Below are positions 165-6,405 of a stretch of DNA of 11,064 nucleotides, piece after piece. Within the stretch, counting starts at the first letter, position 1. Each line of letters begins with the position of its first letter. The position numbers and the translations under genes were made by a program. This DNA comes from a virus. The notes beneath the pieces were generated by a model. It was not told the origin of the DNA and ran no database searches. It saw only the letters and a program-made list of their open reading frames with translations. The stretch lies in UHGV virus genome UHGV-1652352; one strand, given 5' to 3'.

Positions 165-449
165 TTATTCATTGCCGATATTCACTTTTATCGCGAACAC
201 CTTTACCGGTTTATCACCGAAGTGCGGATGTGTGATTGTCTTGATTTCATATCCGTCATACGGGACGTCAATTCTGCGGCTGGAATCGTCGCGCTTCGGA
301 TATCCCTTTGTGATAATCAGGCGGTCATATTCCCGGAACATAATTCGCTTATTCCAGTAGTCATTACACAGGCGATACTCTTCCGTTTTCTCTCCGCGAA
401 TCATGGCATCGAAGTATTCACCTTTGACAGCAAGTTGCAGGTTAGCCAC
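165..449 (-). CDS. ASCH-domain-like protein (94 aa)
   Basis: Track ORF 165..449. GTG start at 449..447 preceded by GGAGG with a 6-nt spacer. Contains a GxKxxExR motif (RGEKTEEYR) typical of ASCH domains. Its start overlaps the stop of the upstream Ea22-like gene. Confidence 0.55.
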   Translation of the reverse strand: MANLQLAVKGEYFDAMIRGEKTEEYRLCNDYWNKRIMFREYDRLIITKGYPKRDDSSRRIDVPYDGYEIKTITHPHFGDKPVKVFAIKVNIGNE

Positions 450-1239
450 GGTTAACCTCCAGTTGTGGTGCTGCTTCTATAGCAGCCCTGTAACCAGCAG
501 CATGACCGCGAAAGTTAGCAATCTCTGATAGCCACGCTTTAATCATGGCCTGAGTTGGCTCCTTCGGCACCATAACCCAACCATCCGGAGTTACCGGAGA
601 GTTGCCAGCCTGAACAGTAGGCATATCAGGACCTTTGCGAATCGCCCTGGCAAGATCGATTGGGTCGTCGTACAACCAGTCACCTGTTTGCGGATGATTG
701 GCTTCTGCCAATTGTGCAGCCCACTCCAGGCCGTCTTTGTGTCCTTGAAGATAGTCCAGCGGCAACTCATCATGTTCACTTACAGGTTCGGCCCCATGAA
801 GCATAGCGGCGCGGCATGCGTTCCAGCCTTGAGCCTTAGCTATTGCCACAACTGCATCGGTAAAGAACATTCTCGTGGTATCTGGCTCCGGCATTTCATC
901 CGGCACCGCTTGCTGCGTTAACCGTGGAGCCGTCAGCGACTCCAATTCAGCAATCCGCTTCTCTGCTGCTTCCAGTTCATCAAGTAGCGCCAGCACGGTA
1001 GCTGGACTGGCTGCGGCGATGAATTCAGCATTGGCCTGCTGTTCCATTTGGAAATCTTCATCGAAGCCGCTTTCTGGATGCGCTCCTTCAATTCTGCAAA
1101 TGGGAATATATCCAGCAATTTCACGATGAATTAGCGCATCATCACAATCAAATCGGCTCTCTCCATATTCGAGCGACCACACCCCACACGTTGCTTTTTC
1201 TGCCTTAGCACGCAGTGCCTGATAGTCAATTTCGCTCAC
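442..1239 (-). CDS. Ead/Ea22-like lambdoid early protein (265 aa from the GTG start)
   Basis: Track ORF 442..1260. I place the start at GTG 1239..1237 because AAGGAGG sits 6 nt upstream and the product then begins [16 protein letters not shown], as I recall for Ea22-like proteins. This start overlaps the stop of the upstream small ORF (GTGA). Confidence 0.7.
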
Positions 1240-1403
1240 TGTTTGCCTCCTTTGCGCCACATCGCATTCAGATATTTGTTTTGATTCACTGATGGAAAAG
1301 AATTTCTCTTAAGCAATTCCTCTCTCGATGGCATTGGCTTTACGCGTTGGCGAATAATCATTTCTGCCGGAAGAATGCCGGGATTGTATGCAAGTCCTCT
1401 CAT
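1236..1403 (-). CDS. small hypothetical protein (55 aa)
   Basis: Downstream part of track ORF 1236..1553. Internal ATG at 1403..1401 is preceded by GAGGA with a 7-nt spacer. Its stop overlaps the Ea22-like start. The longer 105-aa version would overlap the 97-aa gene in another frame. Confidence 0.35.
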
Positions 1404-1413
1404 GGTAAATTCC

Positions 1414-1707
1414 TCAGTCATTACTGATAGCGCCATAGCGTGATCGATAATTACGCAGGCGCGGGTCAATTTCAGGGAAGTGGGTATATGTGGCTTTGCG
1501 GAACGGTCGGATTGATGTCTGGTAAATTCGCTCGCGTTCTTCTTTCTCTGCAAGCCATATACAATGACGAAATTCCTTTTCCTCTTTCGTTTCCTGCGGT
1601 AGCGACATTATCAGGTCATAGTTTTTTCTGAATTTATCCAGCACCTCCGATACGGAATTGCCGGAACAGCGGCGCGGGTCATCCGCACCATACTGAGGCG
1701 CTGGCAT
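1414..1707 (-). CDS. hypothetical protein (97 aa)
   Basis: Track ORF 1414..1707. ATG at 1707 is preceded by AGGAG with a 6-nt spacer, immediately after the SSB stop. Confidence 0.55.
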
Positions 1708-1720
1708 GATTTTCTCCTGA

Positions 1721-2227
1721 TTAAATTGCGTGAATAGCGTGACGAGGGAAGGGGAGAGTTACTGGTGCAAAGGGTATATCGTCGTCAAAATCCATCGGAG
1801 GTTCGTTGTGTTGTGCTGGTGATGATTGCTGCTGTGGCTTCTGTGATTGCCTGCTGGCTGCTTGTTGTTTGCTGTCGCCAATGCCGCCAAGCATCTGCAT
1901 CACGCCATTAATTCCGACATGAACCTCGGTTGTGTAACGGTCTTGCCCTGACTGGTCTTTCCACTTTCTGGTTCTCAGCATTCCCTCGAAATAAATCTGA
2001 TCACCTTTTTTCACATACTGCCCCACGACCTCAGCCAGTTTCCCGGATACAGCAACACGATGCCATTCAGTCAATTCCTTTTGCTCGCCAGTATTTTTAT
2101 CTCGCCATTGTTCTGACGTGGCTATTGTCAGGTTAGCGAACGCTGTTCCTGATGGTGAGTATCGAACTTCCGGGTCTTGTCCTACCCGACCAAGGATAAT
2201 CACCTTATTTACGCCTCTGCTTGCCAT
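1721..2227 (-). CDS. ssb: single-stranded DNA-binding protein with a C-terminal extension past the DDDIPF tip
   Basis: Track ORF 1721..2227. N-terminus [23 protein letters not shown] and the ...TEWHRV..., ...[11 protein letters not shown]... blocks match the SSB OB-fold. The acidic tail [10 protein letters not shown] is present but followed by 15 more residues ([15 protein letters not shown]) before TAA. Confidence 0.9.
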
Positions 2228-2935
2228 TTATGCCGCCTGTTTTAGTTCGTTAACTCTGATGTTCATTATCTGAACGCATTTAGCCTGCGCCTCCTCGTTG
2301 CCAGCCATTAATTGCCAGTCACGCTGATAACGCTCGATGAGTTTTTTCTTGTCAGTTTCTGTTGACGCATAATCGCTGAAGTCTTTCAGGATTTGTTCGC
2401 AGTCAACCGATGGAGATTTCTGGTTGGTATTTTCTGGTGATGGTTTGTTATCTGATGCTGGGATTGCCCATCCCGGAAGCGATGGAGGGAGCCAGTAAAA
2501 TCCTGTTCCATCCTTCAGTTTTGCCCTGTGCCACCCCTGCTTTTTATCGAGAGATGTTTGTGCGAAACCTTCCTCAAGGTTATACAGATACCGACCGATT
2601 CCCCACTGAACGGCAGCGCGCTTCATTGCACCGGAACGACCACCTTTGACGGCTTCTACCTGCGTGTTTTCAGCAGCATCCCATTTGGTTACCCATTCGG
2701 AATCAATCTTTATTGATATGCCGCATTCAACGCCGCCGTTGTTGGGAATATCGCGGTATTCATTGCGCCATCCTGCTTTGCCGCAAACATCGTCCAGGCG
2801 TTTCATGATTGCCCGGTTCGTGACATAAGCCAGCACCATAGCCCACACCTTGCCATCGCGTGTTTTACCGCTTTGCTGTATTCGCCATTCGATATCTTCA
2901 GGGCTGAATGGCTCATCGAATTTGTTCAAATCCAT
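2228..2935 (-). CDS. single-strand annealing protein, Rad52/Sak- or Erf-like recombinase (235 aa)
   Basis: Track ORF 2228..2935. SD GAGGTG 5 nt before the ATG. Sits directly upstream of ssb (stop and start adjacent, TAAATG), the usual annealing-protein + SSB arrangement. Family assignment is from recollection, not a search. Confidence 0.7.
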   Translation of the reverse strand: MDLNKFDEPFSPEDIEWRIQQSGKTRDGKVWAMVLAYVTNRAIMKRLDDVCGKAGWRNEYRDIPNNGGVECGISIKIDSEWVTKWDAAENTQVEAVKGGRSGAMKRAAVQWGIGRYLYNLEEGFAQTSLDKKQGWHRAKLKDGTGFYWLPPSLPGWAIPASDNKPSPENTNQKSPSVDCEQILKDFSDYASTETDKKKLIERYQRDWQLMAGNEEAQAKCVQIMNIRVNELKQAA

Positions 2936-4996: not shown

Positions 4997-5929
4997 TTAA
5001 AGAACCGATTTAACAAGATGGTTTTTACGGTACAGACCTATGCGATCATTGTGAATCTCAGTAGTCTCCACTAAAAGAGAAACAATCTGTCCGACCTTGT
5101 GTTTTTTTTGTATTAAATCTAGCATTTCAATCGGATAGGAAGCCTTTAAATGTTCACCACCAACATCAAGCTCCAGCTTCCCATATTTGGATAGAACGAC
5201 CAGTTCGCCTGTAACCGTTTCAGTAATGGGAGGGGATGAAATGGTTGATGTAAGTCTACTCACCAAGTACTTAATTTTATTGGAGTCAATAGTTGCCACC
5301 TTGGTGCCATTACTAAATGGACCGGTCCAACTTGCATCAAATGTTAAGTTGTGTTTATCGCATTCCTCTACGATTCTCTTAAGGCTTACAGTGGAATTGT
5401 ATCCAATTTCAGCGACGTGATTCATGAAGTTGTTGTCGTCATCGCTTAACAACAAATCGAATATGCCTTTTACAGCCTTGCTGGGTACTGTTTCTACTAA
5501 TTCTGCTATTCCTGTAGAGAAGGTGACGCCCAATTTTGTAGACCCAGGGGATAAATCAGCCAGCCTGAGGTTTAAGGAGCTTTTCACGTCGTAGGGAACT
5601 TTTTTTGAGTCCTTGCCTGAGGCAATTTTGTGTGTTGCTCTTTGTATTAGCGCTGCAAGATTTGTTGAAATAGCCCCAAGCAGCTCTAAAGGAATAGAGC
5701 CAAAGTCAACCTCAGAGCCTTTCAGCCGCAGCTCAAAAAAATCGATAAGTGGGTGCCGACTATCTTGCTTTAATTTTTCGGCCTTCAAATCGCTCAGATG
5801 AGAATCCATGGAGCGATAAAGAAGCATGTCAGCAAAGGACCTGGTTTTGTTTTGCTTCATTGCATCGACTTCTTTTTGAATGAAATCAATGCGTTTATCG
5901 CAATTTTTAAACATTGATTTATCATTCAT
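4997..5929 (-). CDS. hypothetical protein (310 aa), partner of the nucleotidyltransferase-like gene; candidate effector
   Basis: Track ORF 4997..5929. ATG 5929..5927 overlaps the TGA of the upstream gene (ATGA), with GAGGA 7 nt upstream. AT-rich by eye. No Walker motif, transmembrane segment or other motif I can recognise. Confidence 0.8.
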   Translation of the reverse strand: MNDKSMFKNCDKRIDFIQKEVDAMKQNKTRSFADMLLYRSMDSHLSDLKAEKLKQDSRHPLIDFFELRLKGSEVDFGSIPLELLGAISTNLAALIQRATHKIASGKDSKKVPYDVKSSLNLRLADLSPGSTKLGVTFSTGIAELVETVPSKAVKGIFDLLLSDDDNNFMNHVAEIGYNSTVSLKRIVEECDKHNLTFDASWTGPFSNGTKVATIDSNKIKYLVSRLTSTISSPPITETVTGELVVLSKYGKLELDVGGEHLKASYPIEMLDLIQKKHKVGQIVSLLVETTEIHNDRIGLYRKNHLVKSVL

Positions 5930-6405
5930 AAAAAAATCCTCACTAACCCTTTCGGGTTTTCACTGCGATCAAAACCAAACCAACCGCGCCAGTAGCTACG
6001 CCAGTACTCATAATCATAGTTAGGGTCATCTAAATTCTTCATGAGTAGTAGGACATCAATTTTGTAGTTTTGTTTGATGTAGTTTCGGTCAAGCAAATTA
6101 TCGACGCGGCCCCGAAGCATGACAGGTATTGAGTTTATATTGCTATAGTCACATACCAACAAAATATCAATATCATCAGGCTCTGGTTTAGACGTGGTGT
6201 ATGAACCATCAACCCATATTTCTGTAAAACAGCCATATTGAGCAGATAATTCTCGAATAGATTCGAGTAGCTGTATAAAATTACAGTATAGCATGCCTCG
6301 CCTGGATGATGAAGGAAAGCAATCGACACAATACGATTTTAATCCAGCTTCATCCATGTCATGGAACCCTGGCTCAAACAGGGGTGGGTAATTAATTTTA
6401 TCCAT
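5926..6405 (-). CDS. minimal nucleotidyltransferase (Pol-beta fold, MNT-like) domain protein (159 aa)
   Basis: Track ORF 5926..6405. AAGG about 6 nt upstream of ATG 6405. Carries the NTase signature h-G-S-x(9-13)-D-h-D-h: VDGSYTTSKPEPDDIDILLV, close to the GSxARG...SDxDLLV pattern of MNT-type enzymes. Confidence 0.8.
   Translation of the reverse strand: MDKINYPPLFEPGFHDMDEAGLKSYCVDCFPSSSRRGMLYCNFIQLLESIRELSAQYGCFTEIWVDGSYTTSKPEPDDIDILLVCDYSNINSIPVMLRGRVDNLLDRNYIKQNYKIDVLLLMKNLDDPNYDYEYWRSYWRGWFGFDRSENPKGLVRIFL

What the first reader, a model, noticed from the sequence alone, without database searches (positions are those of the whole stretch)
1721..1768. SSB whose conserved DDDIPF tip is not the C-terminus
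Bacterial and phage SSBs normally end in ...DDDIPF-stop, and the free C-terminal Phe is what recruits partner proteins. Here the frame continues for 15 more codons ([15 protein letters not shown]) before TAA. No single-base change would restore a stop right after the Phe codon (TTT GCA ...), so this is not a trivial point mutation. If real, this SSB may bind ssDNA but fail to recruit, or act as a competitor of, host SSB-interacting proteins. It could also be a mosaic junction with the downstream gene, whose SD lies inside the extension, or a sequencing or assembly error.
Basis: partly seen in the sequence, partly recalled or inferred. Interest (0 to 1): 0.45.

Follow-up and report, generated by a model that had tools for sequence, protein, structure and literature searches.

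The report
Phage SSB with conserved capped tail
This prophage single-stranded-DNA-binding protein really does carry 15 extra residues after the usual DDDIPF end. The add-on is not an error: it is a conserved, selected tail shared by many temperate-phage SSBs of enteric bacteria, and it probably changes which partner proteins the SSB can dock.

Summary
The ssb gene (window 1721..2227, minus strand, 168 aa) reads ...[29 protein letters not shown].

It is not a sequencing error. The identical protein occurs in phages HK75, mEpX2 and mEp235, and 297 of 5426 complete E. coli genomes hold the tip and extension as one stretch.

It is not a neutral fusion scar. Of the 120 closest protein clusters, 111 carry an extension of exactly 15 residues, with P2 and L5 invariant and H10 nearly so. 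Synonymous sites are saturated (pN/pS 0.30). The same tip-plus-extension sits on at least four SSB lineages, next to Rad52/Erf, RecT or Sak4-like recombinases, with varied downstream genes.

The tail is predicted to be disordered. SSB family models and all solved SSB structures end at the Phe.

Close relatives with a free tip (Sf6 type) have an endonuclease gene inserted exactly between the Phe and Ala codons. That gene's product then ends in the 15 residues.

Best reading, inferred: a short linear docking motif caps the Phe alpha-carboxylate that host partner pockets need, and offers a new peptide to an unknown partner.

I found no description of it in the searchable literature. I rate it a new variant of a known kind, of moderate interest.

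The parts
1721..2227 (-). ssb gene, 168 codons plus TAA
   Evidence: ORF list. Pfam SSB PF00436, E=1.6e-36. TIGR00621 matches residues 4-153. 57% identical to E. coli K-12 SSB over residues 1-153.
1889..2227 (-). OB-fold ssDNA-binding core (residues 1-113)
   Evidence: In the AlphaFold2 model, block-mean pLDDT is about 81-89 over residues 11-80 and falls to 62-69 over 81-110. The beta-barrel strands span E8-E113. Solved SSB cores align to residues 1-115.
1802..1888 (-). Disordered Q/P-rich linker (residues 114-142)
   Evidence: pLDDT is below 50. This is the most variable and indel-rich part of the alignment.
1769..1801 (-). Acidic tip [11 protein letters not shown] (residues 143-153), identical to the end of E. 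coli SSB
   Evidence: It is under purifying selection across relatives: pN/pS 0.16 with pS 0.86.
1724..1768 (-). 15-residue extension [15 protein letters not shown] (residues 154-168), the finding itself
   Evidence: It is present at 15 aa in 111 of the 120 closest clusters. pN/pS is 0.30 with saturated synonymous sites. It is predicted disordered. It lies outside the SSB family models and outside every solved SSB.
1721..1723 (-). TAA stop of ssb
   Evidence: The stop position is conserved 15 codons after Phe in relatives.
1708..1720 (-). 13-nt spacer holding the abc2 Shine-Dalgarno sequence (AGGAG at 1714..1718)
   Evidence: Read from the sequence. The SD is outside the extension, contrary to the finding's text.
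1414..1707 (-). abc2 (anti-RecBCD protein 2), the next gene in the recombination module
   Evidence: Pfam PF11043, E=4.9e-64.
2228..2935 (-). Rad52/Erf-like single-strand annealing protein gene, abutting the ssb start
   Evidence: Pfam PF04098, E=5e-26.

Best explanation
SHOWN. The 15 codons are a genuine, selected part of the gene. Together with the acidic tip they form a C-terminal module: [11 protein letters not shown] plus [A/S]-P-(V/I)-(T/G)-L-x-(F/Y)-x-(R/S)-H-x-I-(H/Y)-x-(I/L)-COOH. This module defines a widespread class of temperate-phage SSBs in Enterobacterales. It lies in a disordered tail, evolves under purifying selection, and is found on several unrelated or distant SSB cores.

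INFERRED. It works as a short linear docking motif that changes the SSB's partner code.
- Because the Phe is no longer terminal, its alpha-carboxylate is missing. The 'basic lip' of host SSB-partner pockets anchors that group, so classical docking to host partners such as ExoI, RecQ, PriA and chi should be weakened.
- The conserved extension, with its own hydrophobic free C-terminus, offers a new surface to a partner shared by these hosts or phages. That partner is not identified.
- The still-conserved DFDDDIPF probably keeps a role that does not need a free end. Candidates are binding the SSB's own OB fold in competition with ssDNA, or forming part of a two-part motif.
For: Reality and spread:
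- Identical protein in HK75 and mEpX2.
- 297 of 5426 E. coli genomes hold the tip and extension contiguously.
- 111 of 120 nearest clusters in a 5.8-billion-protein database have a 15-aa extension, in Klebsiella, Citrobacter, Enterobacter, Salmonella, Kluyvera and others.
- A species-level genome scan adds Proteus, Providencia, Moellerella, Pantoea and Symbiopectobacterium.

Selection:
- pS 0.67 against pN 0.20 in the extension. Third positions are nearly random, while P2, L5, H10 and I12 are fixed.
- The linker just upstream is free to vary and to take indels.
- The stop position is fixed.

Module behaviour:
- The same tip plus extension occurs on canonical SSB, on a short 'MAIN...' SSB, on the phrog_743 SSB, and on a fourth phrog_44 lineage.
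- In the phrog_743 family most members have a free DDDIPF and a minority carry +15 or +16 residues.
- The tail variant follows the host family, not the core type, with nearly identical DNA between core types.

Not tied to a neighbour:
- Upstream recombinases are Rad52/Erf, RecT or AAA_24.
- Downstream genes are abc2, an exonuclease, DUF1317 or unknowns.
- P22 Abc1 lacks the tail.

Disorder: pLDDT is below 50 for residues 114-168.

Partner rule: the alpha-carboxyl anchor is a shared and critical feature of SSB-Ct pockets (PMC10164576). The tip also binds the OB fold, mainly through Asp and Phe171 contacts (PMC3936761). A cognate phage SSB tail is needed by its recombinase in HK620 (PMC5928155).
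Against: No binding partner was identified, and nothing here measures binding.

Sf6-type phages, and about 100 E. coli prophages, run with the extension split off the SSB by an endonuclease gene. The extension is therefore dispensable for phage viability.

The strict conservation of DDDIPF is not obviously expected if the tip is simply disabled.

The selection test partly used sequences found with a pattern that required P2, L5, F/Y7 and H10. The unbiased set gives the same picture, but it is dominated by close relatives.

Shared tail variants within a host family could reflect recombination among co-resident phages and not adaptation to a host partner.
Confidence: 0.5

Rival explanations
1. 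Pure cap. The extension only blocks the Phe carboxylate, producing an 'insulated' SSB, or a competitor or dominant-negative of host SSB. Its own sequence does not matter.
For: The alpha-carboxyl anchor rule. The OB core is about 57% identical overall to host SSB, so mixed tetramers are conceivable. One-residue caps (DDDIPFN) exist in the phrog_743 family.
Against: A cap needs no particular sequence or length. Yet length 15 and about nine positions are conserved while synonymous sites are saturated. DDDIPF itself also stays under selection.
Confidence: 0.15
2. Pro-peptide or degron. The 15 residues are removed to expose IPF-COOH at the right time, or they target the SSB to a C-terminus-reading protease such as ClpXP and so set its level.
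For: This would explain why both the tip and the extension are conserved. The end ...RHAIHAI-COOH is hydrophobic with nearby basic residues, loosely like the MuA-type ClpX tag RRKKAI (recalled from memory, not tested). A natural endonuclease insertion cuts the gene exactly at F|A and leaves a working canonical SSB.
Against: No protease site or degron was tested or matched. Conservation extends over the whole 15 residues, more than C-terminal degrons usually need. Processive unfoldase-proteases would not stop at Phe153.
Confidence: 0.12
3. The partner is the host sliding clamp. Residues 2-7 of the extension (P-V-T-L-P-F; variants PIGLPY, PVGLQY) act as a clamp-binding motif of the hexapeptide type, like Hda QLSLPL or epsilon QTSMAF. 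This would tether phage SSB-coated DNA to DnaN.
For: By inspection, hydrophobic, L and F/Y at motif positions 2, 4 and 6 are conserved. The location in a disordered terminus is typical of such motifs. The motif consensus is from memory.
Against: The hallmark Gln at position 1 is always Pro. The equally conserved ...RH-x-I-(H/Y)-x-(I/L) half is unexplained. There is no structural or binding test.
Confidence: 0.08
4. Neutral mosaic scar. A deletion fused ssb to the 3' end of a downstream gene (the Sf6 gp26-type endonuclease), and the peptide is a passenger. Alternatively the DNA is kept for a non-coding role, such as the translation start region of abc2.
For: Sf6 gp26 ends in the same 14 residues and shares the DNA up to abc2. 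The GenBank note on Sf6p26 records this identity.
Against: Endonuclease homologs elsewhere stop aligning at about residues 134-143, and the phrog_2340 profile ends at residue 143. The extension stays with SSB when an exonuclease gene is inserted after the stop. It occurs with many different downstream genes. Third codon positions vary freely while the amino acids are kept.
Confidence: 0.03
5. Sequencing or assembly error that removed a stop codon after IPF.
For: None beyond the unusual appearance of the sequence.
Against: Hundreds of independent assemblies and several isolated phages have the same reading frame.
Confidence: 0.01

Closest known systems
E. coli chromosomal SSB (b4059) and the bacterial SSB family (PF00436, TIGR00621)
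   Same: OB-fold core (57% identity over residues 1-153), a disordered linker, and an identical [13 protein letters not shown] tip.
   Different: The host protein ends at the Phe. This one continues for 15 conserved residues, so the Phe has no free carboxylate. The linker is also shorter and lacks the Gly-rich repeats.
Shigella phage Sf6 gp27 (SSB) and gp26 (endonuclease), and ES18-type Rec modules
   Same: Same Erf-ssb-(x)-abc2 recombination module and a closely related SSB. The same 14-15 residues are encoded by the same DNA just upstream of abc2.
   Different: In Sf6 a phrog_2340 endonuclease gene sits exactly between the Phe and Ala codons. The SSB therefore ends ...DDSDIPF-stop, and the 15 residues end the endonuclease instead.
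Phage HK620 SSB (HkaK, 'SSB-2') with Sak4
   Same: A phage Rec-module SSB whose last residues (NDYPPF) are needed to stimulate its cognate recombinase (PMC5928155). This is precedent for phage-specific SSB tail codes. The 243-aa phrog_743 SSB with no Pfam match, which carries the extension next to Sak4-like ATPases, may belong to the same kind of SSB as HkaK; this was not tested here.
   Different: HK620's tail still ends in a free Phe. Here the Phe is internal, and the module is found with Rad52/Erf, RecT and Sak4-like recombinases alike.
Phage HK75 Rec module (prototype class in PMC12315714)
   Same: Identical SSB, including the extension, and the same gene order Erf-like, ssb, abc2, DUF2737.
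   Different: None at the protein level. The paper states that these SSBs have not been studied experimentally. The passages I retrieved by term search do not mention the extension; I did not read the paper in full.

Membership tests
Bacterial/phage homotetrameric SSB (PF00436, TIGR00621) | N-terminal OB-fold ssDNA-binding domain | tested here: met
   Pfam E=1.6e-36. TIGR00621 E=4.5e-49. The AF2 model shows an OB barrel over residues 8-113. PDB SSB cores reach E=2e-59.
Bacterial/phage homotetrameric SSB (PF00436, TIGR00621) | Intrinsically disordered linker after the core | tested here: met
   pLDDT is below 50 from residue 114. The segment is variable and indel-rich in the alignment.
Bacterial/phage homotetrameric SSB (PF00436, TIGR00621) | Acidic tip motif D-F-D-D-D-I-P-F | tested here: met
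   Residues 146-153 are identical to E. coli SSB.
Bacterial/phage homotetrameric SSB (PF00436, TIGR00621) | The tip Phe is the last residue, giving the free alpha-carboxylate used by partner pockets | tested here: not met
   15 more residues follow. Family models and all solved SSBs align only up to residue 153. The rule is taken from PMC10164576.
Bacterial/phage homotetrameric SSB (PF00436, TIGR00621) | Tetramer formation, ssDNA binding and recruitment of SSB-interacting proteins | not testable with these tools
   Needs biochemistry. Only single-chain structure prediction was available.
Beta-clamp-binding motif (QL[SD]LF or QLxLxL type) | Gln at position 1 | tested here: not met
   Position 1 is Pro in all 108 extensions tabulated position by position.
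Beta-clamp-binding motif (QL[SD]LF or QLxLxL type) | Hydrophobic residues at positions 2, 4 and 6, in a disordered terminus | tested here: met
   V/I, L and F/Y are conserved and the tail is disordered. The consensus is recalled from memory, so this is a lead only.
Beta-clamp-binding motif (QL[SD]LF or QLxLxL type) | Binding to the DnaN cleft | not testable with these tools
   No complex prediction or binding assay was available.
Free-standing homing-type endonuclease gene (applies to the Sf6 gp26-like insert in relatives, not to this window) | Presence/absence polymorphism at one precise site in otherwise collinear genomes | tested here: met
   The insert lies between the TTT/TTC (Phe) and GCA/GAA codons. 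The flanks are collinear with the window.
Free-standing homing-type endonuclease gene (applies to the Sf6 gp26-like insert in relatives, not to this window) | Membership of a nuclease family, and recurrent association with the same target gene | tested here: inconclusive
   phrog_2340 'endonuclease', E=2.6e-47, but no Pfam or NCBIfam HNH hit. A 53%-identical homolog sits right after an SSB with a destroyed tip in Vibrio phage D182. Cleavage and homing were not tested.

The most novel reading that the evidence does not exclude
Temperate phages of enteric bacteria have evolved a second, private 'SSB tail code'. A portable 26-residue module (acidic tip plus 15-residue cap) switches an SSB off the host's universal IPF-COOH interaction hub and onto a specific, still unknown target, for example the sliding clamp or a conserved phage or host recombination factor. 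Endonuclease genes that split the module at Phe|Ala toggle the SSB back to the host code.
Probability: 0.25. Interest if true: 0.65.

Novelty: new variant of a known kind. Interest (0 to 1): 0.45.

Why it matters
The last residues of bacterial SSB, with the free carboxylate of the final Phe, are treated as a universal docking signal for more than a dozen genome-maintenance enzymes. They are also being pursued as an antibiotic target.

A large, naturally selected family of SSBs keeps that signal but buries it under a conserved 15-residue cap. About 5% of complete E. coli genomes carry one. This family is a ready-made natural experiment on how the signal can be masked or re-addressed. It also bears on how phage recombination modules (Erf, RecT or Sak4 with SSB and anti-RecBCD) insulate their DNA intermediates from host nucleases.

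There is a practical side as well. Phage SSBs are now co-expressed to make recombineering portable between hosts. The cap may decide whether such an SSB talks to host proteins.

Tried and rejected
1. Error or one-off mutation: rejected by identical sequences in many phages and genomes.

2. Extension as a by-product of the abc2 upstream region: rejected.
- P22 Abc1, which occupies the ssb slot, lacks it.
- In mEpX2 and epsilon34 an exonuclease gene separates ssb from abc2, and the extension stays with ssb.

3. Extension derived from the endonuclease: rejected. Homologs and the phrog_2340 profile end before it.

4. A co-occurring partner gene:
- All-against-all clustering of neighbours in 27 loci found none that was universal.
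- DUF1317 looked linked to extended phrog_743 SSBs, but it also follows one of the two free-tip members examined, uncalled by the pipeline. The other free-tip member is followed by a different small ORF.

5. Recoding to give IPF-stop: by inspection, +1 and -1 frames at CCC TTT GCA give ...IPLHQ-stop or a long open frame. Neither gives a canonical end, and the site is not conserved at the DNA level.

6. Docking of the tail in cis: the single-chain AF2 model leaves residues 114-168 disordered, so this is uninformative.

7. Literature: exact-string searches for LPFPRH, DIPFAP and similar found nothing. Topic searches found no description of the extension.

8. Search of the 1.84-billion representative library with the last 33 residues: it returned mostly fragments, but it revealed a fourth SSB lineage and an Ead/Ea22-tail chimera.

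9. PADLOC: the SSB matches no defence-system model.

Full report
WHAT IS THERE

The window is the early region of a lambdoid prophage. On the minus strand it carries Ead/Ea22 (442..1260), DUF2737 (1236..1400), abc2 (1414..1707), ssb (1721..2227) and a Rad52/Erf-like annealing protein (2228..2935). Further along are a cI-like repressor, cro-like and CII genes, an O-like replication gene and a primase-helicase.

The ssb ORF encodes 168 residues ending ...[28 protein letters not shown], followed by TAA. The Phe codon is at 1769..1771, the 15 extra codons at 1724..1768 and the stop at 1721..1723. The abc2 Shine-Dalgarno sequence (AGGAG, 1714..1718) is in the 13-nt spacer after the stop, not inside the extension.

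IT IS NOT AN ERROR

Megablast of the ssb-abc2 region finds the same arrangement at 98% identity in phage HK75. Phages mEpX2 and mEp235 match at about 97.6-97.7%, but there an exonuclease gene lies between ssb and abc2.

The HK75 and mEpX2 SSBs are identical to the window protein over all 168 residues. E. coli strain ET5 has the same tail.

A 90-nt query spanning the tip and the extension is contiguous in 297 of 5426 complete E. coli genomes, where it is annotated as ssb.

IT IS A FAMILY TRAIT

In a search of 5.8 billion proteins, 111 of the 120 best clusters have exactly 15 residues after the xPF. One has 12 (one HAI unit lost), seven have a free tip and one is frameshifted.

Position by position, P2 and L5 never change and H10 changes in only one of the 111 extended clusters (P0003, His to Leu). 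The others are restricted:
- A/S at position 1
- V/I at 3
- T/G at 4
- P at 6
- F/Y at 7
- P at 8
- R at 9
- I/V at 12
- H/Y at 13
- A/V at 14
- I/L at 15

A degenerate DNA pattern scan of one genome per species recovered about 24 true hits, all in Enterobacterales. They include Proteus, Providencia, Moellerella, Pantoea and a Symbiopectobacterium plasmid. There, 116 of the hits follow the xPF of an SSB.

SELECTION

Across 24 distinct DNA versions of the 15 codons, the uncorrected synonymous difference is 0.67, essentially saturated. The non-synonymous difference is 0.20, giving pN/pS of 0.30. Third positions have entropies of 1-2 bits, while first and second positions of P2, L5, H10 and I12 are fixed. 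The tip itself gives pN/pS of 0.16.

A caveat applies. Some of these sequences were found with a pattern that demanded P2, L5, F/Y7 and H10. The unbiased protein set agrees with them.

The linker immediately upstream varies freely and takes indels. The contrast shows that the peptide is what is being kept, not the DNA.

A PORTABLE MODULE

The same tip plus extension is attached to at least four SSB cores:
- the canonical E. coli-like core
- a short 'MAINxITxSGNVGKD' SSB (PF00436)
- a 243-aa phrog_743 SSB with no Pfam match
- a further phrog_44 lineage

In the phrog_743 family, 96 of 120 clusters end in a free DDDIPF, 9 have +15 residues, 4 have +16 and 3 have a single extra Asn. There the extension corresponds to 45 nt that replace a 14-nt spacer.

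Tail variants follow the host family, not the core type. Enterobacteriaceae phages have [10 protein letters not shown](A/T)IHAI, and Morganellaceae phages have APIGLPYPRHAIYVI. The DNA is almost identical between core types. This shows exchange of the 3' module. It fits adaptation to a host partner, but it also fits simple recombination among co-resident phages.

NO LINKED NEIGHBOUR

The gene upstream is Rad52/Erf-like, RecT, or one of two AAA_24 (Sak4-like) ATPases. The gene downstream is abc2, a DnaQ-like exonuclease, DUF1317 or an unknown. P22 Abc1, which occupies the ssb slot, lacks the tail. No gene co-occurs with the extension across 27 loci.

THE SF6 ARRANGEMENT

Sf6 gp27 is a close relative that ends ...DDSDIPF-stop. 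The next gene, gp26, ends ...[17 protein letters not shown], with DNA identical to the window from there to abc2. In Salmonella prophages the endonuclease ends ...[17 protein letters not shown].

Codon alignment places the insert exactly between the Phe and Ala codons.

Homologs of the endonuclease in other phages align only to about residues 134-143, and the phrog_2340 profile ends at residue 143. The 15 residues therefore belong to SSB and were captured by the inserted gene.

About 108 further E. coli genomes match only part of the 90-nt query. The three listed match only the extension half, and the two I opened have the split form, with the endonuclease left unannotated.

A 53%-identical endonuclease follows an SSB with a destroyed tip (DFDDDRS-stop) in Vibrio phage D182. 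This suggests that the endonuclease family targets the conserved DNA encoding the SSB tip.

Because Sf6 is a viable phage, the extension is not essential.

STRUCTURE

AlphaFold2, run with a 35-sequence alignment, gives an ordered OB fold (strands spanning residues 8-113) and pLDDT below 50 for residues 114-168. TIGR00621 and every solved SSB align only to residue 153. The extension is thus a short linear motif in a disordered tail.

MECHANISM (INFERRED)

SSB-partner pockets share three features: a hydrophobic pocket for the last Phe, a basic lip that anchors its alpha-carboxyl group, and a basic ridge for the Asp residues. The carboxyl contact is among the most important of these (PMC10164576). 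An internal Phe cannot make it, so classical docking should be weakened.

A mere cap, however, needs no conserved sequence, and the DDDIPF is itself still under selection. I therefore favour a composite docking motif that re-addresses the SSB. The tip may also keep its role of binding the protein's own OB fold, which relies on Asp173 and Phe171 contacts and electrostatics (PMC3936761).

A phage-specific SSB tail code has a precedent in HK620, where the last six residues of its SSB are needed by Sak4 (PMC5928155).

Because the neighbouring recombinase varies, the partner is more likely a host protein or a widely shared phage protein. Candidate ideas are a clamp-binding-like P-(V/I)-x-L-x-(F/Y), a protease tag or pro-peptide, or a pure cap. 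They are listed as rivals. None could be tested, because only single chains from the window or from search hits could be folded.

NOVELTY

A 2025 survey of lambdoid Rec modules uses HK75 as a prototype and says these SSBs have not been studied experimentally (PMC12315714). The Sf6 GenBank note records the 14-residue identity between gp26 and an E. coli SSB. Exact-string and topic searches found no description of the extension.

The protein is a member of the SSB family that fails one defining feature, the free terminal Phe. I class it as a new variant of a known kind.

VERDICT

The feature is real, conserved and selected, and its function is unknown. It is moderately interesting to SSB and phage-recombination specialists and is directly testable with peptides and a one-codon phage mutant.

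Noticed in passing
window 4997..6405 (-): A two-gene operon: a 159-aa DUF6932 protein (5926..6405; PADLOC PDC-M63A, E=1.8e-41) and a 310-aa protein with no Pfam match (4997..5929; PDC-M63B, E=7.5e-45). The two overlap by 4 nt. It sits between the early-left genes and the cI-like repressor, which I recall as the slot lambdoid phages commonly use for defence or exclusion genes.
   Followed up: partly
L005 857..1336 (Sf6 gp26); L013-L015; L195 and L196 about 1060..1545: A 159-aa phrog_2340 endonuclease gene is inserted exactly between the Phe and Ala codons of ssb, so the endonuclease ends in the SSB extension. RefSeq annotation leaves this gene uncalled in the two E. coli genomes I examined.
   Followed up: yes
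L197 572..1626 (Vibrio phage D182): An SSB that ends DFDDDRS-stop, with no IPF, is followed 83 nt later by an endonuclease 53% identical to Sf6 gp26. The same nuclease family appears to target the DNA encoding the SSB tip in unrelated phages.
   Followed up: partly
L077 about 1134..1190 (-): An orphan extension (APIGLPYPRHTIYVI-stop) is preceded by a stop codon and unrelated sequence (...SFFQSL*C). This may be another kind of insertion at the same junction. Only 60 nt upstream were held.
   Followed up: no
P0122 (120 aa; metagenome or genome protein): A chimera with an Ead/Ea22-like N-terminus fused to the last about 40 residues of this SSB, including the tip and the extension. This is probably a deletion product.
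   Followed up: no
P0148, P0206, P0223 (phrog_743 SSB family): SSBs ending DDDIPFN, that is a single-residue cap on the Phe. Four others carry a 16-residue version of the extension ending ...AIS or ...AQS.
   Followed up: no
P0001 (165 aa; cluster of 588 sequences, Salmonella): An extension shortened to [12 protein letters not shown]: one of the two tandem HAI units is deleted, so the protein still ends in HAI.
   Followed up: no
L003 1574..2041 (E. coli ET5): A different, 155-aa annotated HNH endonuclease gene is inserted between the Erf-like gene and ssb. In mEpX2 and epsilon34 a DnaQ-like exonuclease gene is inserted immediately after the ssb stop. Both ends of ssb are insertion hot spots.
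   Followed up: partly
L202 6714..6898 and L203 6705..6872: Small ORFs after free-tip phrog_743 SSBs were not called by the source pipelines. One is a DUF1317 homolog in L203, and L202 holds an unrelated 54-aa ORF. Gene-presence comparisons based on the pre-computed calls would therefore mislead.
   Followed up: yes
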